57,384 nucleotides of DNA from a virus (Duplodnaviria; Caudoviricetes): the IMG/VR virus record IMGVR_UViG_3300049596_000539, positions 1 through 57,384 of that record; one strand, written 5' to 3'. This document shows, piece after piece, positions 1,630-30,627 of this stretch. The position numbers and the translations under genes were made by a program. The notes beneath the pieces were generated by a model. It was not told the DNA's origin. It ran no database searches and saw only the letters and a list, made by a program, of their open reading frames with translations. The stretch's first letter is position 1; each line of letters opens with the position of its first letter.

Positions 1630-2540
1630 TGGCTTTCGCGGATCTCGTTGAGTTCTGGCGGGAAGTAAACTGGCGGCGTCCCTACGGGTTTCGATCTGCG
1701 GAGTACGGTACCGGGTACCACCGCGGTAAGGATCTCGCAGGGGGATACGCCAAGCCTGTTTACGCTCTGACTTCCGGAACTATTGTCAAGACCGGGTTTA
1801 GTTCCAGCATCGGTCACTACATTGTGGTTGATACGGGGCGGACAGGTGTTGAGCGGTACGAAATCTACTGTCATATGTTCGACGGGGAAGGCCCTAAGTC
1901 AGGACGAATTAACGCGGGGGACTGGATCGGTCGGCTTGCCGTTAAAGGGGAACGCACCGGAAGTTCTTGGATCGGAGCCCACCTTCACTTTGTTGTCACC
2001 GGCTTCATTGACGGAGCGTACAACACGAACCGGACCACAATTAATCCGGACCCTTACATCATTAGCGCTCTTACCGGAACGTCCGGTGGGGGCTCGGTAC
2101 CATTTGAACCGGAAGGATTTCTCATGGCTCTTGCACCCGCCCAGCAGGGACAGGTCTACGACGCCCTCATTAAGCACGGCCCCACGGGGGATTATTTCTC
2201 CACGGACGCCCTTATCGACATTGAGCGGAAAGAGAATCAGCCGCGCCTTGACGGGATTGTTGCGCGAACGGATGCAGCAAACACTCGCCTTGACGCGATT
2301 ATCGAAATGCTGAAGGTTCTGGACCCTGCGAAGGCAACCGATATCGAGGCGTTTGACGCGAAGCTCCGGGAGTCGGAGGCTCGGACAATCGCCGCAACTC
2401 AGAAGGCGGTAGAGGACTCCTCGAAAGCCCTCCGGACGGAACTGATTACTGCGCTCTCGAATGACCTGGAACTGGACACTGAGGCTATCACCGCCGCGGT
2501 GGACGACGCCTTCAGCAAGGTCTTCGTTCAGCCCACCTGA
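1629..2540 (+). CDS. Endolysin, N-terminal M23 peptidase
   Basis: HxxxD (HRGKD), YCH and HxH (HLHF) M23 motifs and INP; helical C-terminus; followed by holin. Confidence 0.85.
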   Translation: MAFADLVEFWREVNWRRPYGFRSAEYGTGYHRGKDLAGGYAKPVYALTSGTIVKTGFSSSIGHYIVVDTGRTGVERYEIYCHMFDGEGPKSGRINAGDWIGRLAVKGERTGSSWIGAHLHFVVTGFIDGAYNTNRTTINPDPYIISALTGTSGGGSVPFEPEGFLMALAPAQQGQVYDALIKHGPTGDYFSTDALIDIERKENQPRLDGIVARTDAANTRLDAIIEMLKVLDPAKATDIEAFDAKLRESEARTIAATQKAVEDSSKALRTELITALSNDLELDTEAITAAVDDAFSKVFVQPT

Positions 2541-10674: not shown

Positions 10675-13080
10675 TCAACTACCCGACCCGTTCAAACTAT
10701 ACGTCGTCGTCCCATCCTTGCGGTCTGGGTTAATGCGCCCGGAGTTTACCAGGAAGCTGATCCGGTCGTCAAGCTCTCTCGGGCTTCGCTGAATCATTGC
10801 CCGGAAGCGGTGGAGGAGCTTCGTGGCCGTTACCGAACCACCTTGAGTGCGGATATAAGCCTCAATCTCGTTGGCAGAACGGCTGAACTCAGACTCAGAG
10901 GTTTCTTCAACCACCCGGAGGAAGTTGTAGAACCAATCCGTCCCGTACCAAATCGCAATGAGTGCATCGGTTTCTGTGAACTGCGTGCGTCCATCGTAGA
11001 GAGCCGTGAGAGCCGCACACTTGACCAGGGTTTCCGTCAGGCGGGTAAGAGGGCCTTGCAGAACGTCGTATCGCTCATGGGACCGGCACATAGCATCGTA
11101 AGCCAGAGCCGCCTTACTGAGACGCGCCCAGCCCTCATCCGTTGCCCCCACAACCGTTTCGCCCGGGAACATGTACGCGGTGTACAACAGATCCGATGCC
11201 AGATCAAACACCGCGGGGTGCGTGCGGGTGCGTGCGTCCACCTCAGTAGGACCCAGGTTAAAGCGCTCTTCATCCCCTTCATCCCGATCCGGTGCCCACG
11301 TCCAGTTCACACGGCTCATGAAGCCTGATTCGAACATCCCTGTTGTGACAAGGCTCAGCAACTTATCCGGAGTAGCCGACATGTTCAGCCCGAAAGAGGT
11401 TGTCGCTCTCTTCCCTCGGATTTCTTTGGGCAACCGGACCTTGTTGGAGGGCTCCACATCGCCGTCGTAGAACCTAGAGAAGTGGTGCTCAAGGGTTTTC
11501 ATCCACTGACTGTCGTGAAGGTCGCTGAAGAAAGACGCCGCTTCGTCGTGGTGGATCATGCTCGCCAGGCCATCCCGCATCAGCAACTCTTCGTGAATCG
11601 CCGTGGGAGATGAGGAAGCACCCACGTTGTAATAGCCCTGCTCGTCGTACGCCACGATGTCTAGAAGTGAGCGGAGAAACTTCATCGAACTGGTTTTTCC
11701 CGTCCCCGTCCCGCCCATCTCAATGAACCACAAATTAATCCCCAGCCCGTTATAGGCCAGGACAACCTTCGTCCCAAATGCCATACTCAAAGCCGTCCAC
11801 GCAGCGGGAACATCGTACGCCGGAACAGAGAAGCCCTTCTTAAGTGATGCCTCAAGGTATTCGTCAATGAACGTGCGAGTCCTCTTGACGACAGTTACCT
11901 CTTCGTCGGTGAGGAAGGCGTGTGTTCCGTGTTCCACCGTATCCGGAATCTGTACTTTTGTGGAACGGTCGGGAAGCGAGGGGTTCTCCCGGATCGGTTC
12001 TGGCTTTGACCTAGCAGATAGCACCCGTTCATGAACGAACTCCAGGCTCCACTCGCGGGAAATATCCCTGGTCCTAGGTGAATTCCAAAGAACAGAGGTT
12101 ACGAAAAGGTCATCATCTGTAGCGCGCTGAAGCTCCCGCAGTAAGGCACTAAACTCCGCCTTGCCCCCGGGCGCTCCGGTAAGGAGGTTGTCGGGGACGG
12201 ATGCAGGGACTTTGTTGATGTCATAGGCGGGGAGGCTTTTTCGTAGCTCAATAGAGTCACCGTATCGCTCAATGCCCGATGACAGCGCTTCATGAAACTT
12301 CCACTCCCACCGATCTTCCGGCGTGGTGTGCCCTCCGGGGTCACGGGAAAGCCAAGCATCCTCAAGTGCCGACAGCAGTTCCGGCACGCCTGTTGCGGCC
12401 TCAGCACCCAGCCGGATAGCTTCGTAGGTGGCCGACACCATTTCCTGATGCGACATATCGTTATTGACGCGCTCTATTGCCCGGCGGACAGCGACGTTCG
12501 GGGGACCAACTTCAAGTGTGTCGTACCACTCTTTCAGCCCACCTGAAAATGACTCGGAGGACTTTACGGTTTTTTCATCCAGCATCCACTCAGGCGCCGG
12601 TGAGAACTCTTCACGACTCTTCGGAACATCGCCGTTCCATAGTACCCAAGAGGACCCGGCGCGGATGTCTACGCCCTGCATCCCCCGGTAGTTAGTCGCG
12701 GGAGCCAGGTTCTTTCCCTCGGGTGCTGTGTAGATGAGGTGCGTTCCGCCAGAGGGGGTCTCATAGCTGAACGTGCTCGGGATCTCGTACCAGGATTTCT
12801 CCAGAGAATCCCAACCCGACTTGCCGTTCTTCTCGTCTACGTCTAGCCCAATAAGCCCGGCGGCTCCCAGGTACGCACCGACTCGTGCGGACTTGTTCTC
12901 AGTGAACCAATCCTCGACAAGACCGGGGTCAAGGGATGCTTCGAGATGGCCGTTCTTGTGGCCCCACGGCTCCTTAACGCCTTCTGACGTAATGCGCGCT
13001 TTAAACACGGGAATGCCCAGTGCTACAAGCCCCCGGGCGATATCAACCGAACGGTGTTCCATAGGTAGTTCGGTCTTCAA
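10675..13080 (-). CDS. Bifunctional primase-polymerase fused to a helicase/ATPase domain
   Basis: Prim-Pol motifs LDVD, TPSGGTH, GVDIRA; Walker A GGTGTGKT; HHDE Walker B; DUF3987-like C-terminus. Confidence 0.9.
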   Translation of the reverse strand: MKTELPMEHRSVDIARGLVALGIPVFKARITSEGVKEPWGHKNGHLEASLDPGLVEDWFTENKSARVGAYLGAAGLIGLDVDEKNGKSGWDSLEKSWYEIPSTFSYETPSGGTHLIYTAPEGKNLAPATNYRGMQGVDIRAGSSWVLWNGDVPKSREEFSPAPEWMLDEKTVKSSESFSGGLKEWYDTLEVGPPNVAVRRAIERVNNDMSHQEMVSATYEAIRLGAEAATGVPELLSALEDAWLSRDPGGHTTPEDRWEWKFHEALSSGIERYGDSIELRKSLPAYDINKVPASVPDNLLTGAPGGKAEFSALLRELQRATDDDLFVTSVLWNSPRTRDISREWSLEFVHERVLSARSKPEPIRENPSLPDRSTKVQIPDTVEHGTHAFLTDEEVTVVKRTRTFIDEYLEASLKKGFSVPAYDVPAAWTALSMAFGTKVVLAYNGLGINLWFIEMGGTGTGKTSSMKFLRSLLDIVAYDEQGYYNVGASSSPTAIHEELLMRDGLASMIHHDEAASFFSDLHDSQWMKTLEHHFSRFYDGDVEPSNKVRLPKEIRGKRATTSFGLNMSATPDKLLSLVTTGMFESGFMSRVNWTWAPDRDEGDEERFNLGPTEVDARTRTHPAVFDLASDLLYTAYMFPGETVVGATDEGWARLSKAALAYDAMCRSHERYDVLQGPLTRLTETLVKCAALTALYDGRTQFTETDALIAIWYGTDWFYNFLRVVEETSESEFSRSANEIEAYIRTQGGSVTATKLLHRFRAMIQRSPRELDDRISFLVNSGRINPDRKDGTTTYSLNGSGS

Positions 13081-13160
13081 GCTGTGCTCCCTCGTCCTCG
13101 AATATCAGTCTATCGCGTCTCCCCGTACGCCTCAATAAATTTCACATCAGTTTCGTAAAC

Positions 13161-13240
13161 GCGCAACGGGGAGGATTCGAACCTCAAACCAAATTAACCA
13201 GTGCCACTGGCGTTGCCACCCCTCGATCATTCCCGCTTGC
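13161..13240 (-). ncRNA. Degenerate tRNA-like element
   Basis: T arm GAGG-UUCGAAU-CCUC; bulged acceptor GCAA(G)CGG/CCGUUGC; CCAGU-GGC-ACUGG hairpin; no canonical D stem. Confidence 0.45.
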
Positions 13241-13275
13241 ATACGGCTACGGCTTGGAGATGAGGATTCTCCGCG

Positions 13276-13355
13276 TGGAAGTGGGGCGGATCGAACGCCC
13301 GTCTTGCAGAGTCCAACTTGTGGTTTTGTTCTGCAATCGACACCATTTCACTCCC
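13276..13355 (-). ncRNA. Mini-tmRNA: tRNA-like domain only, no tag ORF
   Basis: Acceptor GGGAGUG/CACUUCC-A with G3-U70; stemless D loop AAAUGGUGUCGA; helix 2a UUGCAGA/UCUGCAA closed by a 19-nt loop; GAC linker; T arm GGGCG-UUCGAUC-CGCCC. Confidence 0.85.
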
Positions 13356-13358
13356 GTA

Positions 13359-13404
13359 CGTCAGATAGTTTTACAACCCGAGGGCCTTCGTCCTCCACCT
13401 GACG
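13359..13404 (-). ncRNA. Hairpin resembling 16S rRNA helix 16
   Basis: 10-bp closing stem CGUCAGGUGG/CUAUCUGACG carrying GAAGGCCCUCGGGUUGUAAA. Confidence 0.65.
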
Positions 13405-13411
13405 GGTGTTT

Positions 13412-13478
13412 CTTCTACACGCGACTCGGCAAGGTCGCAATATTCACCGATGTAGAAGCCGGGTTATCGCCTCCCGGG
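13412..13478 (-). ncRNA. Structured 5' segment of the ncRNA cluster
   Basis: Stems CCGGG/CCCGG, CUUCUACA/UGUAGAAG and GCGAC/GUCGC directly after the promoter. Confidence 0.45.
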
Positions 13479-13483
13479 TCTTT

Positions 13484-13493
13484 CAGTCTATCA
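13484..13493 (-). promoter_or_regulatory. Extended -10 promoter heading the ncRNA cluster
   Basis: TGA-TAGACT overlapping the ssb stop codon; same motif recurs genome-wide. Confidence 0.65.
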
Positions 13494-13790
13494 GAAAGGC
13501 TCCGATCCGTCATCCTCTGCGGTCTCGAACCGGGCGGAGTTCAGCACGATATCTGCCACCGCACGAGGCTCTCCGTCATCGGGCGTCCAGATGCGAGCCT
13601 TCACACCCGTAAGCCCGGATACGTTGCCCACAGCGCCCTCAGAGAGCCCGTGAGGCGCATCAAACCACGCCGTGTACTTGGCTGATCCTTCGCTACCGTC
13701 CTGTTTCTGGAACGTCTCCACGAACTCCGCTCCCTTGCCTTCGTAAAAGACTCGGGACACCTTTGCGTTTCGAATATAGGTCAATGCCAT
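13491..13790 (-). CDS. Single-stranded DNA-binding protein
   Basis: OB-fold-sized, acidic tail ending EPF, AAGGAGG RBS, located in the recombination module. Confidence 0.75.
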   Translation of the reverse strand: MALTYIRNAKVSRVFYEGKGAEFVETFQKQDGSEGSAKYTAWFDAPHGLSEGAVGNVSGLTGVKARIWTPDDGEPRAVADIVLNSARFETAEDDGSEPF

Positions 13791-13791
13791 T

Positions 13792-13977
13792 TTACTTCTC
13801 CTCCTTGTTGATGAGTTCACTAAGAATATACGCTACTGCGTCATTGAAGTCAAGTTGCTGATACGCCTTCATTGCGAAAGGCCGGTTATCAACGGCATCT
13901 GACAGCACACGAAGGGCCGCAGCCCGCTTGGCTTTCTTGCTCTTGTAGGCGTCCATGTAACTTACCATCAGTCCCAC
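13792..13977 (-). CDS. Small hypothetical protein
   Basis: AAGGAGA RBS, packed operon. Confidence 0.45.
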   Translation of the reverse strand: MGLMVSYMDAYKSKKAKRAAALRVLSDAVDNRPFAMKAYQQLDFNDAVAYILSELINKEEK

Positions 13978-14095
13978 GCCTCTCCTTCAATGCTAATCAG
14001 ATTCTCGACAGGCTCTCCCACGTCATCGTAAATGAAACGGCCAATCGCCGCAGGAAGGTCCCTTGCCTCCACGACAATGCTCACTCGGTACTTGC

Positions 14096-15016
14096 TCACG
14101 ATTCCTCCTTCTCAGCCATCTTCATAAGTCGCTGTCCCTTTCGAACCTGTAGCGCTCCTCGAAACATTTCCCAGCCCGCGTCAACCTTAGCAGAACTTAC
14201 CGGCTTCAGCGTGCAGAACGCATCTCGGCGTCCGGAAGGTAGCAGGTCCGTGGGCCGCAAGTGCAAGATCGCATACTCCGAGAATGCTGGAATAGGCTCC
14301 TCCCGCCAATACGACTTCCCGCCCTCCTTCGGCAATTCATACTCTACCGCACCTTCGGCCCCTTCCGCAACCTCTCGGATAATGGATTCTGCGGCTCCCA
14401 GGGCTGCAAGCTGTGCGTAGTGCTCCCCGCGCGTGTTCTTCGAGGTCTTAAGATCCACGAGAGTTGCAACGCCATCCACAATCCACAGGTGATCGAGAGT
14501 CCCAGCATACCCATCCCCGACAACCGTAACCTCTGTTTCCAGGACCGTTACTTCATGGCTGTTCCACCAATCCACGAACTCGGTAATCATCTCCTCTTGC
14601 TCAGGCCGGAAAATATCCTCCGGGAATAAATCATTGATGAAATCCGCTACCCAGTCGTGGGTCTTAGTCCCGAGGTTCGCCAGGTCATCGAGTACGCCTG
14701 CGGAATAGTCGTGCGGGTCGGTTTCCGGGTTATCGAAGTCGAACTTCCGCTTGTGATACCACCGCCCCATGTGGTAGGTCTGTTCAGCCGTCCGGTTCAG
14801 CACCGCATCAATGTTGGCTGCATAAAAAGCACAGGTATTATCGACAGCCCACTGAACCACCCCGCCCTTTTCAATGGCCCCCAAAACCGTTGTGACGCCT
14901 GGGACCAAGAGCGGCTTTCCGTCTTCTCCTAGCCGTGTCGGGATGCGGTAACCGCTACCAGAGTAACCAGAGGCGGCGACACGAAGTTTGGGAGCCCAGC
15001 GGTCGTGAGTATCCAC
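14096..15016 (-). CDS. PD-(D/E)XK exonuclease (Cas4/RecE-like)
   Basis: PGVTTVL, GTKTH, E, YAGTLD, LVDLKTS and QLAA motifs; adjacent to ERF. Confidence 0.85.
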   Translation of the reverse strand: MDTHDRWAPKLRVAASGYSGSGYRIPTRLGEDGKPLLVPGVTTVLGAIEKGGVVQWAVDNTCAFYAANIDAVLNRTAEQTYHMGRWYHKRKFDFDNPETDPHDYSAGVLDDLANLGTKTHDWVADFINDLFPEDIFRPEQEEMITEFVDWWNSHEVTVLETEVTVVGDGYAGTLDHLWIVDGVATLVDLKTSKNTRGEHYAQLAALGAAESIIREVAEGAEGAVEYELPKEGGKSYWREEPIPAFSEYAILHLRPTDLLPSGRRDAFCTLKPVSSAKVDAGWEMFRGALQVRKGQRLMKMAEKEES

Positions 15017-15663
15017 TAGACCTTCTTCAGTTCGGGGATCTTCTTCTCTGCGATAACCGTCTCCCGAGCCTTCAGAGCGCTAGAGCCCTCCTTCTTCAAC
15101 TCTTCGATCCGGTCATTCACTTCCTTCTTCCGAGTTGCGTCCCCATCAATCCACACCCGGATACGGTCATTAGCCTCCGCCAACTCTCCCCGACCCGACG
15201 CCGGTACGGACGCCTGGTTTGTCGGCTGTGGGGGCTTAGGAGCGGCGTTGGCAATGGCGCGTTCAGCAGCACTCGGCTGTGACGCTGCGTTTCCGTCATC
15301 GTCCCCATCCGCAACCACTCCGGTGAGAGACGCCAAAGCATACCGCCGGTAATAACTGATCGCTGAACCAACCTTTTGCGGGTTAGTCTCGGTGATCGGG
15401 AACTGCATGCTCCGAGAAGTGCCGGATTCGTGCATAAGGTGGGCGTCCAGAATCATTACGCCGTTTTCCACGAAGGCCCCGGTTGAGAATGCAAGTCCGT
15501 GTTCGCTCAGCTTCGGCAAAACAATCGTGCTCATGTTCGCCAGCGTTGCAAACTTGCTCTTGAAATGCGGATTAATCGCATCCATGTCTACCCGGGGGGC
15601 ATCCGCCTGAAACGCTGCCAGTGCCTCAGTCAGAGAGCCGTACTTTTTCGTTGCGTTAACCAT
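15016..15663 (-). CDS. ERF family ssDNA-annealing protein
   Basis: NPHFKSKFATL, L.H.SG and Q..GSAISYYRRYAL...DDDGN motifs; AAGGAG RBS before ATG at 15663. Confidence 0.9.
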   Translation of the reverse strand: MVNATKKYGSLTEALAAFQADAPRVDMDAINPHFKSKFATLANMSTIVLPKLSEHGLAFSTGAFVENGVMILDAHLMHESGTSRSMQFPITETNPQKVGSAISYYRRYALASLTGVVADGDDDGNAASQPSAAERAIANAAPKPPQPTNQASVPASGRGELAEANDRIRVWIDGDATRKKEVNDRIEELKKEGSSALKARETVIAEKKIPELKKV

Positions 15664-16183
15664 TCGTTTTCTCCTTCTTAGATTTGTGATAGAAAAGTCG
15701 TTTGCATTCCCTGCATCCTCTGTAGCCGTTAGGGTAGAGGTACAGATTATCACCTGAGTAGGGGTGACCATGCGCGCAATGTGTCTTATGAGATTGTCGG
15801 TTGTAATCCTGCCCATTTCTAAGGGCGTCCTGAATGTTATCCTGTTGCGTGCCCCAAAGCAAGTTCTGCACTGAATTATTGTCTTTGTCGTCATCCCAAT
15901 GCCGAACAACGGGATAACCATTTGGATTCGGGATAAATGCTCTGGCCACTAGGCGGTGAATCTCTCGGGACATCTGATTCCCGTCCTTGTGCAAACTCAC
16001 GCGGTAATGCCCTTTAGAGCCCTTGTTCGGCTTCAGAACTCGGCCCCTCCAAAGAACCTTTTGCCCCGACCGCCGCAAGACATAGTGATCGTAACTCCGA
16101 ACACGACCCAAATTGGAGACTTCATAGAGGCCCTCATAACCCACAACCGGTAGCCATTCCTCTAGATCATTCACGCTACCCAT
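15656..16183 (-). CDS. NUMOD4-HNH homing endonuclease
   Basis: EEWLPVVGYEGLYEVSNLGRVRS (NUMOD4); HRLVA.AF...H.D.DK.NN...NL.W; C-terminal KTHC..GH...C.EC. Confidence 0.92.
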   Translation of the reverse strand: MGSVNDLEEWLPVVGYEGLYEVSNLGRVRSYDHYVLRRSGQKVLWRGRVLKPNKGSKGHYRVSLHKDGNQMSREIHRLVARAFIPNPNGYPVVRHWDDDKDNNSVQNLLWGTQQDNIQDALRNGQDYNRQSHKTHCAHGHPYSGDNLYLYPNGYRGCRECKRLFYHKSKKEKTNG

Positions 16184-21965: not shown

Positions 21966-22059
21966 CTTCGTCCCAGTCCGTCGAGTTTGTCAAGCCTACT
22001 ATACTCCGGGTTCGGATCATCCGCAATAAACCACGCGATGAATTTTCGAATTGTGTTTC

Positions 22060-22536
22060 TCATCGTGAAGCCTCCCGCGTAGCTTCTACCGCTTCAAGAG
22101 CAGCGCGCATACGGGCCTTGCGGTAGTCGTAGAAGCTGACGTACTCGACAGAATCCGCGAACTCCCGAGTCGTCTTCTCTGCCAGTTCGACATCGGCGTC
22201 GGTGATGGGTTGGGGTTCTGTGGTCGCTTCACGAGAACGACGGAAACCCGCAGCGAGGACCGTTGCTGTCAACCTCGGGATCAGATCCCCCGAGTTGAAC
22301 GCCACCCCAGCGTCGTACAGGGTGCGGAACAACGCTTGTGCGAGATCCGTCTCGTCGGGTGCGGTCGGGCTAACACCACCAGCCGCCAGCGCCGTGACTA
22401 CCGCCTCGGTTAGCTTCTTCCGCAGCGGCCCCATATCCTGCCCGAGCAGCCGGGCTTGCACCTTCTCGGGGAAGTTGATGACGTTGCGTACGACCTCCCC
22501 GATTGCCAGGTCGATTAGTTCCTCCCGCGTCTTCAT
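22060..22536 (-). CDS. Hypothetical protein
   Basis: GGAGA RBS, ATGA coupling. Confidence 0.55.
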   Translation of the reverse strand: MKTREELIDLAIGEVVRNVINFPEKVQARLLGQDMGPLRKKLTEAVVTALAAGGVSPTAPDETDLAQALFRTLYDAGVAFNSGDLIPRLTATVLAAGFRRSREATTEPQPITDADVELAEKTTREFADSVEYVSFYDYRKARMRAALEAVEATREASR

Positions 22537-22793
22537 GGTTTCTCTCCGTTCTTCGGTCGGACATCAGGGGACGGAATGGACGGATGGACCGGTTTCACCA
22601 CGCCGATGTTCTGGGCGAGTGTGCTCGCCGGGATTCCATCGCCGTCGAACGCTCGATACCAGAAGTCCAGATAGCGCGACTTCTGCCACGCGTCGCCGTA
22701 TGCATCGATGACGACAGCTCGGTCCGGCAGGGCATCGAGCTTCTCCCGAGCACGAGCGATGTCCGGACGCCACGAACTCAACTTCCCGCTCAT
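22533..22793 (-). CDS. Hypothetical protein
   Basis: LDALP...VVID..G.AWQK...W pattern common in actinophage small proteins. Confidence 0.55.
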   Translation of the reverse strand: MSGKLSSWRPDIARAREKLDALPDRAVVIDAYGDAWQKSRYLDFWYRAFDGDGIPASTLAQNIGVVKPVHPSIPSPDVRPKNGEKP

Positions 22794-23164
22794 TATTCAG
22801 ACTCCGATCCGGTCGGCATCGGTTCGATCGCCCAGAACTGGCGCGCCTCTAGCCCATCTTGAGAAGGGTGCGGATCGTGGATCAGCCCCTCGGGACCCCA
22901 CACAACGACATGCTCGACGTTCCGAGGGGACATCCCGATCGCCAAGCATTCGCGGTCGATGTTGCCAGCGGCCATCGGGTGCATCGTGAGTCCGCGCGAC
23001 CGCAGCCACATCGTGAATGCTGTGAACCAGTCGCGGTCGTAGAGAACGAAGTGCGGGACAGCCTCAGTAGGCAGGTCAAGCAGTGACGCAACGGCGGTGC
23101 GCATGCAGTCGCCGGGTATGCCGCGCGGGTCGTTGACGAAGATCGTCTGTGTGTGCCGAATCAC
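22793..23164 (-). CDS. Papain-fold (C39-like) domain protein, putative
   Basis: Q...GDC...AVASLL, H.VV and HDP pattern. Confidence 0.45.
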   Translation of the reverse strand: MIRHTQTIFVNDPRGIPGDCMRTAVASLLDLPTEAVPHFVLYDRDWFTAFTMWLRSRGLTMHPMAAGNIDRECLAIGMSPRNVEHVVVWGPEGLIHDPHPSQDGLEARQFWAIEPMPTGSESE

Positions 23165-23598
23165 TGCTCAACCCCGTTCGTCTCCTGTTTGGCTTCGGGG
23201 TTGTCCTGCGGGACAGGAACAGCAGGAGCGGAGAGGATGAGACGCATCCATTCACGAGCGAACCCGTCTGTTACTTCCTGCCTCTCGGCATCAAGAGCAT
23301 CCGCGATCCGTGCGTCCCGGTCAGCGACCTCGGCTCGGAGTGTGGTGATCTCGTCCAACAGGGCAAGCACCACGTCAGGCGAGGCGGCGGCGATGAACTC
23401 GGCATCCGGGTCCGTGTAGACGTGAGCGACCGGATTGCAGTCCTCCGCCTCACCGTCCGCGAGCAACTGCCGGTACGACTCGGCATCCCCCACCGTCTTG
23501 AATCCCTGGTAATCCAGGTCGTGCCAGATCGCCCAAGGCCCTTCGACCGCGACCGCCTCGGCTAGTGCCCGCAACCCCACAACATCGGAATCGGTCAT
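23161..23598 (-). CDS. Ead/Ea22-like protein
   Basis: LRALAEA...GPW...DAEFIAAASPDVVLALLDEI. Confidence 0.7.
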   Translation of the reverse strand: MTDSDVVGLRALAEAVAVEGPWAIWHDLDYQGFKTVGDAESYRQLLADGEAEDCNPVAHVYTDPDAEFIAAASPDVVLALLDEITTLRAEVADRDARIADALDAERQEVTDGFAREWMRLILSAPAVPVPQDNPEAKQETNGVEQ

Positions 23599-24205
23599 GC
23601 GTCCGTGCTCCTAATCTCGTGATCCCGCTTACGTTGTGCCGCAGCACCGGCCGCGAACACTGCTCGCAGTCCGGCATCGTGGTCCTGGATCGTCCAGACG
23701 TTGCGGTCCCGGAAGGCGGCGAGGTAGATGTCGTGAAGCTCAGGCATCTTGTGCACCCATATCGACATTCACGGTGACCGAAGTCGGCCGTCCGTCATCG
23801 CGCCAGACCGACGTCGGGAGGTCGACGCGGACCACGCCTTCGTTCGTGAAGGTGGCGCGCTCCTTATCGAGCGCGCTCAGGGTAAGTGCATACCTACGCA
23901 TCGTGTCTCCTAATCTCGTGGTTTGTGGTCATGTCCCAGCGCCGGTCACCTGGCCGGACCACCTCGTATTCGGTCACTTCGATGGGCTCCATGCCGGTCA
24001 TTCTCCCACCGCTTTGGGTTCGTCGATCTGCCATCTGAGGGACCGGAGTTCGTGTCCTCCACGCCAGACCATTTCGCATGCCCGGCACATTCCGCGTGCG
24101 TGGCGCAGGACGTCGTCTTCGGGCCCTTCCCGGTATTCGACGCGGACGGGGTGGCGGTACACGATCCCGTCGATGTCGGCTCGGAGTGTGGTGATCTCGT
24201 CCAAC
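23330..24205. repeat. 30-bp direct repeat (23330-23359, 24176-24205) and 14-bp direct repeat (23608-23621, 23907-23920)
   Basis: TCGGCTCGGAGTGTGGTGATCTCGTCCAAC x2; CTCCTAATCTCGTG x2. Confidence 0.85.
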
Positions 24206-28032: not shown

Positions 28033-30627
28033 TCAGTAGTAAAGCGTTGTGCGACCGTTGACGGTGGGCTCTAGTACCGGGTCACCTGAATCGTCTTGCA
28101 CGGCGTAACCTTCGTAGGCCGTGGCGTGGTGCATGCTGTAGGAAACGTTCCGGTGGAACCAGGCCAGGACTTCGGACTCGGTAGTAGCGGTGGCGATGGG
28201 CTGTCCGTCGCGAGTGATGGTGAACATTGGGTGCCTCCCGGCGTCTCGGTGAAAGCTGCTTTGCAGCGGGTCTTAGGTCAAGTATGCCGGTTGCGAGGGA
28301 GGAAGTCAAGCGTTTTATCAAAAGACTTTGCAAGCGCTAGAAGGCGTTTTAAGACGACGAAACCCCCGCCTAGGCTACCGACACCTAGAACAGGGGTTAA
28401 GTGGCTGAGAATTGATCCTGTGCGTTCTCAGAGGGCTTTAGCGAGCATAAGGGACAGGCCCGTAGGCTCAGTACCCTTGCGATAGGTGCCGGTAGTCCAG
28501 CCGTGATCCTTGCGGGACTTCTCTTCTCGGGTACAGTCGCGGATAGAGCCGATAGCGAGCTTGATGAGGTAAGGCTTATCGTCCTGCCCTACATAGCTCG
28601 GGTGAAAGCCCCACAGGATGTACTCTGTCTTTGTCATGGGATAAGTCTCTCAGTTCGTCTAGCAAAAGTCAAGCAGAAAAACCGAAAGGCCCTTAAGAGA
28701 ATCCCCATCCCCTAAGAGCCCCGCTTCCCTGCCCCGGATTCATTCGGTAAGGGGCGTTTTTGGTTGTTCAGTTATTCGGATTCAAGCGGCTCGATTCGGA
28801 GCAATACCCTGTCATACGCATCACAGTTTCGGATGAACTCGGTAAGCTCGTTGAGTCCCTGTTTGAAAGTGGTTCGCACATACCCGTCTCGCGAGTAGGT
28901 GATAACGAATTTGTTGTTCATGTCCCAATCCTCTCACTCTCTACGCGAAAAGTCAAGTGAGCAAAGCGAACGTGTGAGGCGTTAGCCGATCAAGCCCTAC
29001 GCGAAAGATGTTCTAAGTGTTCTTGAAATCGTTTGGCCGCGTCAATCTGTGCCTGTTTTACAGCTAACAGGTAAATTGTCGCACCTGAATTCGTGCGGGT
29101 TAGCGTGAGCATTAGACCAACACGTCTCGTCCGGCGTCGTCCTTGACGGAGTAGCCCTCATACGGCGGTTGAGGTACGCATCAGTCAAACCCGATACAGA
29201 TTGCCAGTATGTGTCATGGATTCAGGGTACGACCAGGAATGCTGCATCGCGGAACACGGCTCACCTTGCGGGTCTAGATCACCCTCGCATCGCATCCATG
29301 TATATTCGATGACTTTGCCCGCAAGCCCCGGATTCAGAAAGCCGTTGAAATGCGCGGTTTCTGACTCTGAGTAGTGGTGGGACACTAAGTGTCCGCAAGT
29401 GCATCGAGCGTAGGACCCATCACTTGCATCAGTCATACGCCCGCCCTCGCAAACTCAACTTCCCGGACGTATTCGATATGCGTGCATCGCGGCCCGCAAT
29501 AGATGCCGTAGGCGTCACTGTGCGCCCCGCCAACGCCCGCGAGCGCGTGTGTAGCGCAATCCGGCGCGTCCATGCGAACGAAAGTGGCAGGTGACCCACA
29601 GACGTCACAGGGATAGGTGCTGAAGGCCCCCTCGCGAGCGGTCCAGCCCAACTCGATTAGATTGCTAAGAGTGCTCATGATGGCCTCCCGACCTACCGGT
29701 GCGGGTTAGGGTTCTCATGCGAACGGCTCCCCCCTCTTCCAGATAACGCGCATCCCCTGGGGGTAGACGATAAGCCCGGCCTCTGCCGCATTCTCTAGGG
29801 CAATGGGTCGATAAGTCTTTTGCCAGTCTCGGCTAAGTTCCGCCCACTCCACTACAGTAGGTCCCTGTACCACGATGCGGTCGCCATCAGAGTTAATAAC
29901 GGTAGCGAATGTTTCGGTGTATTCGTTCATGTCTCTATTCTCCTACGCGATGGTGTGTAAGTCAAGCGGCGAGCGCTAATTGATAATGATTCTCAAGTAA
30001 AGACAAACGCAGATTCAGTCATTAACCTCAGCATGCACCATCCACGCACCCAGCCCGGCAAGCGCCAGCACGAACGCGGTGCCCACAACGTGGACGTTGG
30101 TGGATGAGATAGCGGCGAGGTCCAGCACGACGTAGAGCGCAATGAGCCCTGCGAGCGTGAGAGCGGCGAACGCGATGGCCCCGGCGTACTGTACGGCGAG
30201 TCGCTGTACGCGGGTGAGGATGGCGGCGGTGTTCATTAGATGCTCCAGTGAATAGCGGTGTGGATGAATGCGATGAGCAATGCCGATGCGAGAAGGGCAC
30301 ATGCGGTGTCGATCACGGGGCGACGGCGGGTCATCATGCACCCATCCGCATAGCGCGTGCAATGACGGTACGGATAACGGACACCGAGTCAGCACCGCGG
30401 AACATAGCACCTGCCTGCCCCCGCTTGCGCGTGTCGCCTACGGCTGTGGTGCCTAGGTAGTTGGGGAAGATGCTACGCGCGGTGTCCGTCAGGGGATTGA
30501 TGGTAACGGTGGCCCACGGCGTGCCGTTCTCGGTAGCGGTGAACGTGGTGCGAGTCTCGTGCGGCAATGCGGCCAACATCGTGGCGAATGCGGCGACTGA
30601 CTTAGCTTCAACCGTTTGCGTGTTCAT
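28033..30627 (-). other. Early region of small hypothetical CDSs (28033-28227, 28428-28637, 28772-28921, 29185-29436, 29433-29678, 29715-29930, 30015-30236 membrane, 30334-30627)
   Basis: Most are headed by TTGAC-N17-(-10) promoters; same strand. Confidence 0.55.

What the first reader, a model, noticed from the sequence alone, without database searches (positions are those of the whole stretch)
13276..13355. 80-nt mini-tmRNA: complete tRNA-like domain with the mRNA domain deleted
Seen: 7-bp acceptor with G3-U70 and A73 (AlaRS identity), stemless D loop with GG and UCGA, 7-bp helix 2a, GAC linker and perfect T arm. A 19-nt loop replaces the pseudoknots and tag ORF, and CCA is not encoded. The usual first C-G pair of helix 2a is a compensated U-A, which argues for selection. 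Known: the TLD is the SmpB, AlaRS and EF-Tu binding part, and tag-less tmRNAs occur in some protist mitochondria. Inference: it may sequester SmpB to block trans-translation and proteolytic tagging of phage proteins, or add Ala without a degradation tag. TLD-only phage RNAs may already be catalogued; this needs checking.
Basis: partly seen in the sequence, partly recalled or inferred. Interest (0 to 1): 0.85.

Follow-up and report, generated by a model that had tools for sequence, protein, structure and literature searches.

The report
Phage tag-less mini-tmRNA gene
This phage carries a real 80-base gene that copies only the alanine-accepting, tRNA-like head of the bacterial ribosome-rescue RNA (tmRNA); the type is already known from mycobacteriophage DS6A, belongs to a conserved phage family, and probably lets the phage interfere with the host's rescue-and-tag system.

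Summary
On the minus strand, 13355..13276 folds into a 7-bp acceptor stem with G3.U70 and A73, a stemless D loop, a 7-bp helix 2a, a GAC linker and a canonical T arm. There is no tag ORF and no encoded CCA.

The kind is already catalogued. Mycobacteriophage DS6A is listed as 'TLD only' tmRNA (PMC4131195, PMC11915505). I located that gene. It is also 80 nt and aligns with the window element arm for arm (53 of 81 columns identical).

Two pattern scans of IMG/VR plus a covariance model gave 30 distinct relatives. Across them 98.5% of 646 pair cells are paired, 18 of 22 pairs change on both sides, and G3.U70 holds in 29 of 29. The '19-nt loop' is a conserved capped mini-helix.

A model built only from 12 members that Rfam's tmRNA model itself recognises scores the held-out window at 87.8 bits.

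The phage has no SmpB, no CCA-adding enzyme, no integrase and no tRNA gene. ARAGORN and Rfam at gathering miss the element.

Function (competition with host tmRNA for SmpB and stalled ribosomes, probably as a charged RNA) is inferred, not shown.

Verdict: real, a new member of a known kind, of moderate interest.

The parts
13276..13355 (-). Whole 80-nt tag-less mini-tmRNA gene (tRNA-like domain plus capped helix 2)
   Evidence: Read. Fold. Scores 95.7 bits with R1 and 87.8 bits with the leave-out model R2. Aligns with the DS6A TLD-only gene.
13349..13355 (-). Acceptor stem, 5' strand (RNA positions 1-7; G3 of the G3.U70 pair)
   Evidence: Pairs with 13277-13283 at 7 of 7 positions. G3.U70 holds in 29 of 29 family members with both sides present.
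13337..13348 (-). Stemless D-loop equivalent (12 nt, with GG and TCGA), the expected SmpB-contact elbow
   Evidence: Matches the 5' consensus of Rfam tmRNA_permuted in the alignment. Same signature as 6 full-length tmRNAs. G of TCGA corresponds to E. coli G19, and the T before C corresponds to U17 (passages, numbering checked on L145).
13330..13336 (-). Helix 2a, 5' strand (7 nt)
   Evidence: Seven perfect pairs with 13304-13310. All 7 pairs of this helix change on both sides across the family.
13311..13329 (-). Cap of helix 2: A-rich stretch, 3-bp stem (13321-13323 with 13313-13315), pentaloop (13316-13320), then GGA-type 3' side. It takes the place of the pseudoknots and tag ORF.
   Evidence: Conserved in a scan that did not specify it. 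The 3 stem pairs are 100% paired and all change on both sides. No TAA, TAG or TGA occurs within these 19 nt (read).
13304..13310 (-). Helix 2a, 3' strand
13301..13303 (-). GAC linker; its A corresponds to E. coli A334 of the SmpB Trp122 pocket
   Evidence: PMC8363625 passages.
13284..13300 (-). T arm (5-bp stem, 7-nt TTCGATC loop)
   Evidence: T stem is 100% paired in the family, and 4 of 5 pairs change on both sides.
13276..13283 (-). Acceptor 3' strand (13277-13283, holds U70) and discriminator A73 (13276). No CCA follows.
   Evidence: A73 is present in 30 of 30 distinct members, and CCA is encoded in 1 of 30.
13825..13853 (-). Promoter-like site upstream of the SSB gene. It could drive an SSB-RNA transcript from which the tRNA-like RNA is cut out.
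   Evidence: 10 of 12 consensus positions. This is a consensus match only.
13197..13211 (-). Terminator-like hairpin with a T-rich tail, about 65 nt downstream of the element
   Evidence: This is a consensus match only.
13491..13820 (-). Upstream flanking gene, ssDNA-binding protein (context)
   Evidence: ORF listed. DNA similarity to annotated SSB genes of three Microbacterium phages.
10675..13080 (-). Downstream flanking gene, DNA primase/polymerase (context)
   Evidence: ORF listed. tblastn gives 45% identity over 98% of the query to the primase/polymerase of five Microbacterium phages.

Best explanation
The element is a gene for a tag-less, TLD-only tmRNA. It is a member of a phage-borne family whose one published example is in mycobacteriophage DS6A.

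Shown here:
- It has every sequence and structure feature of the tmRNA tRNA-like domain plus a short capped helix 2.
- It has no resume codon, no tag ORF and no pseudoknots.
- It is conserved with heavy covariation across diverse phages.
- Neither this phage nor 28 other carrier records encode SmpB.

Inferred mechanism:
1. The RNA is transcribed with or after the SSB message and cut out by host tRNA-processing enzymes.
2. The host enzyme adds CCA, and host AlaRS charges the RNA with alanine through G3.U70 and A73.
3. Host SmpB binds at the D-loop/linker elbow.
4. The RNA therefore competes with host tmRNA for SmpB and, as Ala-RNA.SmpB.EF-Tu, for the empty A site of stalled ribosomes.
5. Because no message follows, the proteolysis tag cannot be added.

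The net effect would be inhibition or short-circuiting of host trans-translation during infection. The invariance of the alanine identity elements suggests that charging matters, which would make it more than a passive SmpB sponge.
For: Structure: read; fold at z = -3.17.

[quoted passage not shown] PMC11915505 repeats this (passages).

Homology to DS6A: the DS6A gene lies at L006 28478-28557. It is 80 nt, and 53 of 81 alignment columns are identical to the window. The acceptor, helix 2a, cap and T stems differ by paired changes.

Family:
- First scan: 8 of 52 hits are members.
- Second scan, with the loop unspecified: 35 of 40 hits are members, 28 of them new.
- 30 distinct sequences show 98.5% of 646 cells paired and 18 of 22 pairs changed on both sides. 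No shuffle of 500 reached this, and slid controls gave 35-54% paired.
- G3.U70 holds in 29 of 29 and A73 in 30 of 30.

Independent tmRNA label: Rfam RF00023 hits 12 of 28 member records at 36.9-64.2 bits, 6 of them above the 47-bit gathering score, and hits DS6A at 43.2 bits.

Non-circular membership: model R2, built from those 12 only, scores the window at 87.8 bits (E = 2e-20). That is the best of 18 held-out members. The next class of hits is the 3' ends of real tmRNA genes at 33.4 bits or less.

TLD signature: shared with 6 full-length tmRNAs. The acceptor stem is identical to that of Streptomyces phage Daubenski's tmRNA.

SmpB contacts: equivalents of U17, G19 and A334 are retained (passages).

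Host dependence: no SmpB in the window or in any of 28 member records. No CCA-adding enzyme in the window.
Against: - No expression, processing, charging or binding data exist for this RNA. Every functional step is inference.
- Rfam RF00023 does not reach E <= 0.001 on the window itself, and only weak partial hits appear. It also misses 16 of 28 member records.
- ARAGORN of 31 distinct members.
- The fold z-score is moderate. DS6A's own fold is not better than shuffles (z = -0.72).
- Members were partly selected by pairing: my filter and the CM threshold. Helices 1 and 4 are therefore biased. Helix 2a and the cap were not selected.
- I could not read Mao et al. 2009. The two citing papers differ on whether the DS6A RNA itself or 'a similar molecule' was tested. 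PMC4131195 says inhibition occurred 'whether or not chargeable', which does not require charging.
- The nearest cultured relatives carry a different element in this slot.
Confidence: 0.8

Rival explanations
1. Tag-free ribosome rescuer that helps the phage. The charged RNA with host SmpB enters stalled ribosomes and accepts the nascent chain on alanine. The peptidyl-RNA is then released by host hydrolases or drop-off. Ribosomes are recycled quickly, and truncated phage proteins escape the degradation tag. This overlaps with the best explanation and differs only in the net effect (more rescue rather than blocked rescue).
For: G3.U70 (29 of 29) and A73 (30 of 30) never vary while neighbouring pairs covary, which argues for selection on charging. 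CDS-less organellar tmRNAs that co-occur with SmpB are thought to still help with incomplete mRNAs (PMC11915505 passage). Reviews describe Ala-TLD/SmpB as the unit accommodated in the A site (PMC3022190 passages).
Against: The only experimental statement I could see is inhibition of endogenous tmRNA. No release factor or hydrolase gene was looked for next to the members. Nothing in these data shows how the peptidyl-RNA would be resolved.
Confidence: 0.3
2. Pure SmpB sponge. The RNA acts only by binding and titrating host SmpB, and charging is irrelevant.
For: PMC4131195 states that a similar molecule inhibits tmRNA 'whether or not chargeable', 'perhaps acting by titrating SmpB'. The SmpB-contact equivalents are retained.
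Against: A sponge would not need G3.U70, A73 and a perfect 7-bp acceptor, yet these are invariant or fully paired in the family.
Confidence: 0.25
3. Degenerate tRNA, tRNA pseudogene or tRNA-like processing signal with no link to trans-translation.
For: 11 of 31 distinct members lie within 500 nt of tRNA genes. The relatives carry tRNA-Leu in the same slot. Bare T-arm hairpins occur nearby.
Against: There is no D stem and no anticodon loop. The D-loop and linker signature is that of tmRNA. RF00023 labels 12 relatives as tmRNA. Ordinary tRNAs score 29.9 bits or less against 76-96 for members. Strong purifying selection with covariation excludes a pseudogene.
Confidence: 0.03
4. Integration-site (attP) remnant, or a captured and internally deleted piece of a host ssrA gene without function.
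For: tmRNA genes are common phage integration sites (PMC10865867 passages).
Against: Both the 5' and 3' halves are present. No tyrosine or serine recombinase is found in this complete genome. The same build is conserved in phages whose locus GC ranges from 0.29 to 0.68. Only 1 of 52 pattern hits in 185,579 bacterial species genomes is a member, and it lies on a 7.3-kb contig.
Confidence: 0.01

Closest known systems
'TLD only' (CDS-less) tmRNA of Mycobacterium phage DS6A (tmRNA Website tmID 11587 / Phage__Mycobacterium.9; PMC4131195, PMC11915505)
   Same: Both are 80 nt with the same order of arms. Both have G3.U70, A73, a stemless D loop with the same core, a 6-7-bp helix 2a, an A-rich stretch with a 3-bp stem as cap, a canonical T arm, no encoded CCA and no tag ORF. 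53 of 81 columns are identical, and both are hit by models R1 and R2.
   Different: The first helix-2a pair is U-A here and C-G in DS6A. The linker is GAC here and CAC there. DS6A is temperate (integrase gp56); this phage has no recombinase. RF00023 sees DS6A at 43.2 bits but not the window. The genomic contexts differ (between gp33 and DNA pol III in DS6A; between SSB and primase here).
Full-length phage tmRNAs (for example Streptomyces phage Daubenski gene 170, 281 nt; the mycobacteriophages listed in PMC4131195)
   Same: Same TLD signature. Daubenski's 7-bp acceptor stem and discriminator are identical to the window's, and it also lacks an encoded CCA.
   Different: These keep the mRNA-like domain with a tag ORF. 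Related phages are annotated with a tag peptide. The window element has 19 nt in its place.
CDS-less organellar tmRNAs (mitochondrial tmRNA, Rfam RF02544; ~65-bp plastid forms of Mallomonadaceae; PMC11915505 passage)
   Same: Reduced to the tRNA-like domain with no tag reading frame, and dependent on an SmpB encoded elsewhere.
   Different: Organellar, and derived from the organelle's own bacterial ancestor. RF02544 gave no hit on the window at E <= 10. No sequence comparison was made here.
Bacterial tmRNA (ssrA; Rfam RF00023)
   Same: Acceptor with G3.U70 and A73, a D loop with GG and (T)TCGA, GAC before the T arm, and a T loop of the TTCGAnn type.
   Different: 345-398 nt with pseudoknots and a tag ORF in the five genomes sampled. 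Chromosomal.
tRNA-Ala
   Same: G3.U70 and A73 identity set, a 7-bp acceptor and a T arm.
   Different: The window element has no D stem and no anticodon arm. Neither ARAGORN nor the Rfam tRNA model at gathering calls it.

Membership tests
tmRNA tRNA-like domain (TLD) | 7-bp acceptor stem with a G3.U70 wobble pair (AlaRS identity) | tested here: met
   GU in 29 of 29 family rows. The role of G.U is stated in PMC8363625.
tmRNA tRNA-like domain (TLD) | Discriminator A73 followed by CCA (encoded or added) | tested here: inconclusive
   A73 is present. CCA is not encoded. That is also the case in 4 of 6 genuine tmRNA genes sampled and in 29 of 30 family members. Post-transcriptional addition cannot be tested here.
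tmRNA tRNA-like domain (TLD) | No D stem; D-loop equivalent with GG and TCGA(C) forming the SmpB-binding elbow with the linker A | tested here: met
   Alignment to the RF04321 consensus. Comparison with 6 tmRNAs. Contact residues from PMC8363625.
tmRNA tRNA-like domain (TLD) | Helix 2a in place of the anticodon arm | tested here: met
   7 bp. 7 of 7 pairs covary.
tmRNA tRNA-like domain (TLD) | Canonical 5-bp T arm with a 7-nt TTCRAnn loop | tested here: met
tmRNA (Rfam RF00023 and permuted models) | Score at or above the curated gathering threshold | tested here: not met
   0 hits at gathering. RF00023 gives no hit at E <= 0.001. The best partial hits are 14.1 and 12.9 bits. These models expect the mRNA-like domain. 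Relatives reach 36.9-64.2 bits.
TLD-only (CDS-less) phage tmRNA, DS6A type | mRNA-like domain absent: no pseudoknots, no resume codon followed by an ORF with a stop | tested here: met
   Only 19 nt lie between the helix-2a strands, with no stop codon in them.
TLD-only (CDS-less) phage tmRNA, DS6A type | Homology in sequence and structure to the catalogued member | tested here: met
   53 of 81 columns identical with compensatory changes. Leave-out model R2 gives 87.8 bits, E = 2e-20.
TLD-only (CDS-less) phage tmRNA, DS6A type | Carried by a phage that lacks its own SmpB | tested here: met
   (window). 0 of 28 member records including DS6A.
TLD-only (CDS-less) phage tmRNA, DS6A type | Expression, alanylation, SmpB binding, inhibition of host trans-translation | not testable with these tools
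   Needs experiments. The only experimental claim was seen second-hand. Mao et al. 2009 is not held.

The most novel reading that the evidence does not exclude
The mini-tmRNAs are a dedicated, virus-specific family of charged A-site substrates rather than accidental deletion products. The never-varying alanine identity set would mean the RNA must be aminoacylated and enter stalled ribosomes. The conserved cap (A-rich stretch, covarying 3-bp stem, pentaloop close to YNAGU, then GGA) would be a second functional module. It could set the fate of the ribosome after alanine transfer, for example by blocking translocation or a second round of rescue, or by recruiting a release activity. Phages would thereby reprogram ribosome rescue rather than merely soak up SmpB.
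Probability: 0.3. Interest if true: 0.7.

Novelty: new member of a known kind. Interest (0 to 1): 0.4.

Why it matters
It adds a clear case, in an actinophage-like lytic genome with no tRNA genes, to a class of phage RNA known in print from a single example.

It also shows that the class is a conserved family that is almost exclusively virus-borne. The alanine identity elements never vary, and the helix-2 cap is conserved.

Standard annotation misses these genes. ARAGORN of 31, and Rfam's tmRNA model reaches gathering in 6 of 28 carrier records. A small dedicated covariance model would recover them.

The family gives a compact natural tool, and a testable hypothesis, for how phages interfere with bacterial trans-translation, which is also an antibiotic target.

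Tried and rejected
- ARAGORN and Rfam at gathering on the window: nothing.
- blastn of the element against 50,697 phage records: only short T-arm/acceptor matches, the best to annotated Streptomyces phage tmRNAs at E = 0.09. It did not find DS6A.
- Close relatives of the phage in IMG/VR through the primase protein: none. Through the conserved upstream element: none.
- Permuted (two-piece) tmRNA reading, suggested by weak Rfam hits: rejected. The upstream T-arm-like hairpin has a 9-10-nt loop, and its following strand does not pair with the element's 5' strand, whereas the standard-order element closes perfectly.
- The 99-nt G3.U70/A73 RNA of four Microbacterium phages as a family member: rejected by score (22.3-22.5 bits with R1, 21.5 with R2, both in the tRNA range). 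A scan for its relatives gave 18 unrelated hits.
- The cap as an anticodon loop: rejected. Read as 7 nt, it lacks U33 and a purine at position 37, and the implied anticodons differ between members.
- Second T-arm region 13150-13235: its fold is not better than shuffles (z = +0.27).
- Bacterial genomes: 51 of 52 pattern hits are not members.
- Mao et al. 2009 could not be opened.
- The metagenome scan was not used because the viral scans sufficed.
- No protein-complex or structure job was relevant.

Full report
**1. What is there**

The window is a complete 57,384-bp virus record with direct terminal repeats. Genes around the finding run on the minus strand. An ssDNA-binding protein gene lies at 13491-13820 and a primase/polymerase gene at 10675-13080, with about 410 nt of non-coding DNA between them.

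- a 7-bp acceptor stem whose third pair is G.U;
- a 12-nt D region without a stem that holds GG and TCGA;
- a perfect 7-bp helix around 19 nt;
- a GAC linker;
- a 5-bp T stem with a TTCGATC loop;
- the acceptor 3' strand and a discriminator A, followed by CGC rather than CCA.

The minimum-energy fold gives this structure at -29.1 kcal/mol, with z = -3.17 and 1 of 200 shuffles as good. A scanner of my own (T arm plus a closing 7-bp acceptor within 260 nt) finds no other fully paired candidate in the window.

ARAGORN reports no tRNA or tmRNA in the window, and Rfam reports nothing at gathering. In permissive mode there are only weak partial hits. The T arm and acceptor 3' strand hit beta_tmRNA (14.1 bits, E = 0.039). 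The 5' strand and D loop hit the tmRNA_permuted consensus (12.9 bits, E = 3.1).

**2. It is a known kind**

Hudson, Lau and Williams 2014 (PMC4131195; passages seen) list 'Mycobacterium phage DS6A (TLD only)' among phages with ssrA. [quoted passage not shown] The 2025 tmRNA database paper (PMC11915505; passages seen) repeats this for DS6A. It also describes ~65-bp CDS-less plastid forms and tag-less mitochondrial tmRNAs. Mao et al. 2009 is not held, so I saw the experiment only second-hand.

My searches found no paper in the held library that describes more than the DS6A case in phages. The supplementary tables of the database paper, which I could not see, may hold more.

**3. Direct comparison with DS6A**

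The GenBank record of DS6A annotates no RNA there, and ARAGORN misses it too. My scanner finds it at 28478-28557 (L006), between gp33 and the DNA polymerase III gene.

It is also 80 nt. Aligned with the window element, 53 of 81 columns are identical. Both share G3.U70, A73, the D-loop core, the T loop and a loop motif, and neither encodes CCA. The acceptor, helix 2a, the small stem inside the loop and the T stem differ by changes on both sides of the pairs.

**4. A family**

A pattern taken from the two sequences (AATGGTGN{12,17}AAAACCN{20,30}GTTCGA) hit 52 IMG/VR loci. Eight of these have the complete build: seven new contigs and DS6A's own copy. The rest are ordinary tRNAs or chance.

A covariance model from nine sequences (R1) separates members at 76.6-96.1 bits from the best non-member, a tRNA at 29.9 bits.

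A second pattern that leaves the loop unspecified (ATGGTGTYGAN{30,45}ACNNNNGTTCGATNC) hit 40 loci. Seven were already known. Of the 33 new ones, 28 hold a member at 58.7-94.6 bits. The other five (L070, L071, L083, L086, L092) do not.

That gives 37 rows and 30 distinct sequences. On them:
- 98.5% of 646 cells form standard pairs, against 35-54% when partners are slid and 70% in shuffles. None of 500 shuffles reached the observed value.
- 18 of 22 pairs change on both sides. These include all 7 pairs of helix 2a and all 3 of the small cap stem.
- G3.U70 is GU in 29 of 29 rows (one row is cut by a contig end).
- A73 is present in 30 of 30, and CCA is encoded in 1 of 30.

One caveat on bias. My filter and the model threshold select for pairing, and both patterns fix part of the D loop and T loop. 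Helix 2a and the cap were not selected, and the cap sequence was not specified.

The '19-nt loop' is therefore a conserved module: an A-rich stretch, a 3-bp covarying stem, a pentaloop close to YNAGU, then GGA.

**5. Independent and non-circular membership**

Rfam's curated tmRNA model RF00023 hits DS6A's gene at 43.2 bits. It gives an ~80-nt match in 12 of 28 member records at 36.9-64.2 bits, 6 of them above the 47-bit gathering score. For six of these (L075, L021, L068, L080, L059, DS6A) the coordinates are plainly those of the mini-tmRNA. The other six are in contig numbering that I did not map back.

RF00023 misses 16 records, and it misses the window.

I then built a model from those 12 Rfam-recognised members only (A7, R2). 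It scores the held-out window at 87.8 bits (E = 2e-20). That is the highest of 18 held-out members, which range from 80.0 to 87.8 bits. The next hits are the 3' ends of genuine full-length tmRNA genes at 22.0-33.4 bits.

Five bacterial tmRNAs and the full-length tmRNA of Streptomyces phage Daubenski show the same TLD signature. Four of those six do not encode CCA. Daubenski's acceptor stem is identical to the window's.

**6. Distribution and context**

Locus GC of members runs from 0.29 to 0.68, so the hosts are diverse.

In one genome for each of 185,579 bacterial and archaeal species, the second pattern hit 52 places. Only one is a member (82.7 bits), on a 7.3-kb contig binned into a Saccharibacteria MAG. 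The family is thus essentially virus-borne.

Eleven of 31 distinct members lie within 500 nt of a tRNA gene. The window's copy does not, and the window has no tRNA gene at all.

The window encodes no SmpB, no CCA-adding enzyme, and no tyrosine or serine recombinase. None of 28 member records encodes SmpB, including the 7 that are at least 90% complete and DS6A.

A promoter-like site precedes the SSB gene, and a terminator-like hairpin follows the element by about 65 nt. Both are consensus matches only.

**7. How it most likely works**

Shown: the RNA has the parts that in tmRNA engage AlaRS (G3.U70, A73), EF-Tu (acceptor and T arm) and SmpB (the D-loop/linker elbow). It lacks everything needed to resume translation.

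In E. coli numbering, SmpB's Trp122 sits in a pocket formed by A15, U17 and A334. The conserved G19 lies on SmpB (PMC8363625, passages). The window keeps the equivalents of U17, G19 and A334. I checked the numbering against L145.

Reviews describe the TLD as the SmpB-binding region, and Ala-TLD/SmpB as the unit accommodated in the A site (PMC3022190, passages).

Inferred: the RNA is matured by host tRNA enzymes, receives CCA, is charged with alanine and binds host SmpB. It then competes with host tmRNA for SmpB and for stalled ribosomes, so tagging is reduced. Because the alanine identity set never varies while its neighbours covary, I think charging is part of the function. This favours an A-site competitor or tag-free rescuer over a passive sponge, but PMC4131195 reports inhibition 'whether or not chargeable'.

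None of these steps was tested for this RNA.

**8. Relatives of the phage**

The nearest cultured relatives are five Microbacterium phages, at 45% amino-acid identity in the primase. In the same SSB-primase slot they have a tRNA-Leu(CAA). Four of them also have an unannotated 99-nt RNA with a 7-bp acceptor, G3.U70, A73, no D stem, a long irregular helix and a canonical T arm. Its fold gives z = -3.5 to -3.7.

That RNA scores only 21.5-22.5 bits with R1 and R2, in the range of tRNAs. I found no relatives of it, so I do not file it in the family.

**9. Earlier notes of this scan**

After reaching the above, I found eight AI notes on other phages that describe the same class and the same DS6A comparison. 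They agree with my reading but are not independent evidence.

**10. Verdict**

The feature is real and under selection. It is a new member of a known kind (TLD-only phage tmRNA). The family-level picture is useful: alanine identity elements that never vary, a conserved cap, a virus-only distribution and invisibility to annotation tools. It is not a surprise to a specialist, so interest is moderate (0.4).

Noticed in passing
window 13398-13482 (minus strand): Directly after the SSB stop codon lies a conserved element: a 5-bp hairpin with a 9-10-nt loop, followed by a longer stem enclosing a possible pseudoknot. It is shared with five Microbacterium phages. In an alignment of the window with four of them (BarnCat left out), 3 of 20 predicted pairs keep pairing through changes on both sides. 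Its function is unknown, and the weak tmRNA_permuted hit partly rests on it.
   Followed up: partly
window 13161-13216 (minus strand): A T-arm-like hairpin with a canonical TTCGAAT loop is enclosed by a 6-bp stem and sits next to the terminator-like hairpin at 13211-13197. The region does not fold better than shuffles (z = +0.27).
   Followed up: partly
L001 2953-3051 (-), L002 2569-2667 (-), L004 and L005 1047-1145 (+): An unannotated 99-nt tRNA-like RNA with G3.U70 and A73, no D stem and a long irregular helix in place of the anticodon arm. It occurs in Microbacterium phages WaterT, LeeroyJenkins, Cassita and BarnCat, in the slot syntenic to the window element. It is not a member of the mini-tmRNA family by score, and no relatives were found.
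   Followed up: partly
L003 about 2458-2523 (minus strand), Microbacterium phage Lifes: An uncalled tRNA-like gene with a normal D arm, an encoded A-CCA end and an undersized (about 5-nt) loop where the anticodon loop should be. It lies downstream of the annotated tRNA-Leu.
   Followed up: no
L014 7320-7500: Three bare T-arm hairpins, each followed by a few bases, flank that contig's mini-tmRNA. ARAGORN calls no tRNA there. The window shows something similar.
   Followed up: no
L001 2680-2865 (+), WaterT gene 69: An annotated 'hypothetical protein' CDS overlaps the tRNA-Leu gene on the opposite strand inside the RNA-rich gap. It is probably a spurious call.
   Followed up: no
L006 13981-14071 (DS6A): ARAGORN's only call in DS6A, a 91-nt 'tRNA-Lys', lies inside the tape-measure gene gp19 (12375-16001). 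It is probably a false positive.
   Followed up: no
window 22001-24000: GC content rises to 0.618 against 0.52-0.60 elsewhere in the window.
   Followed up: no
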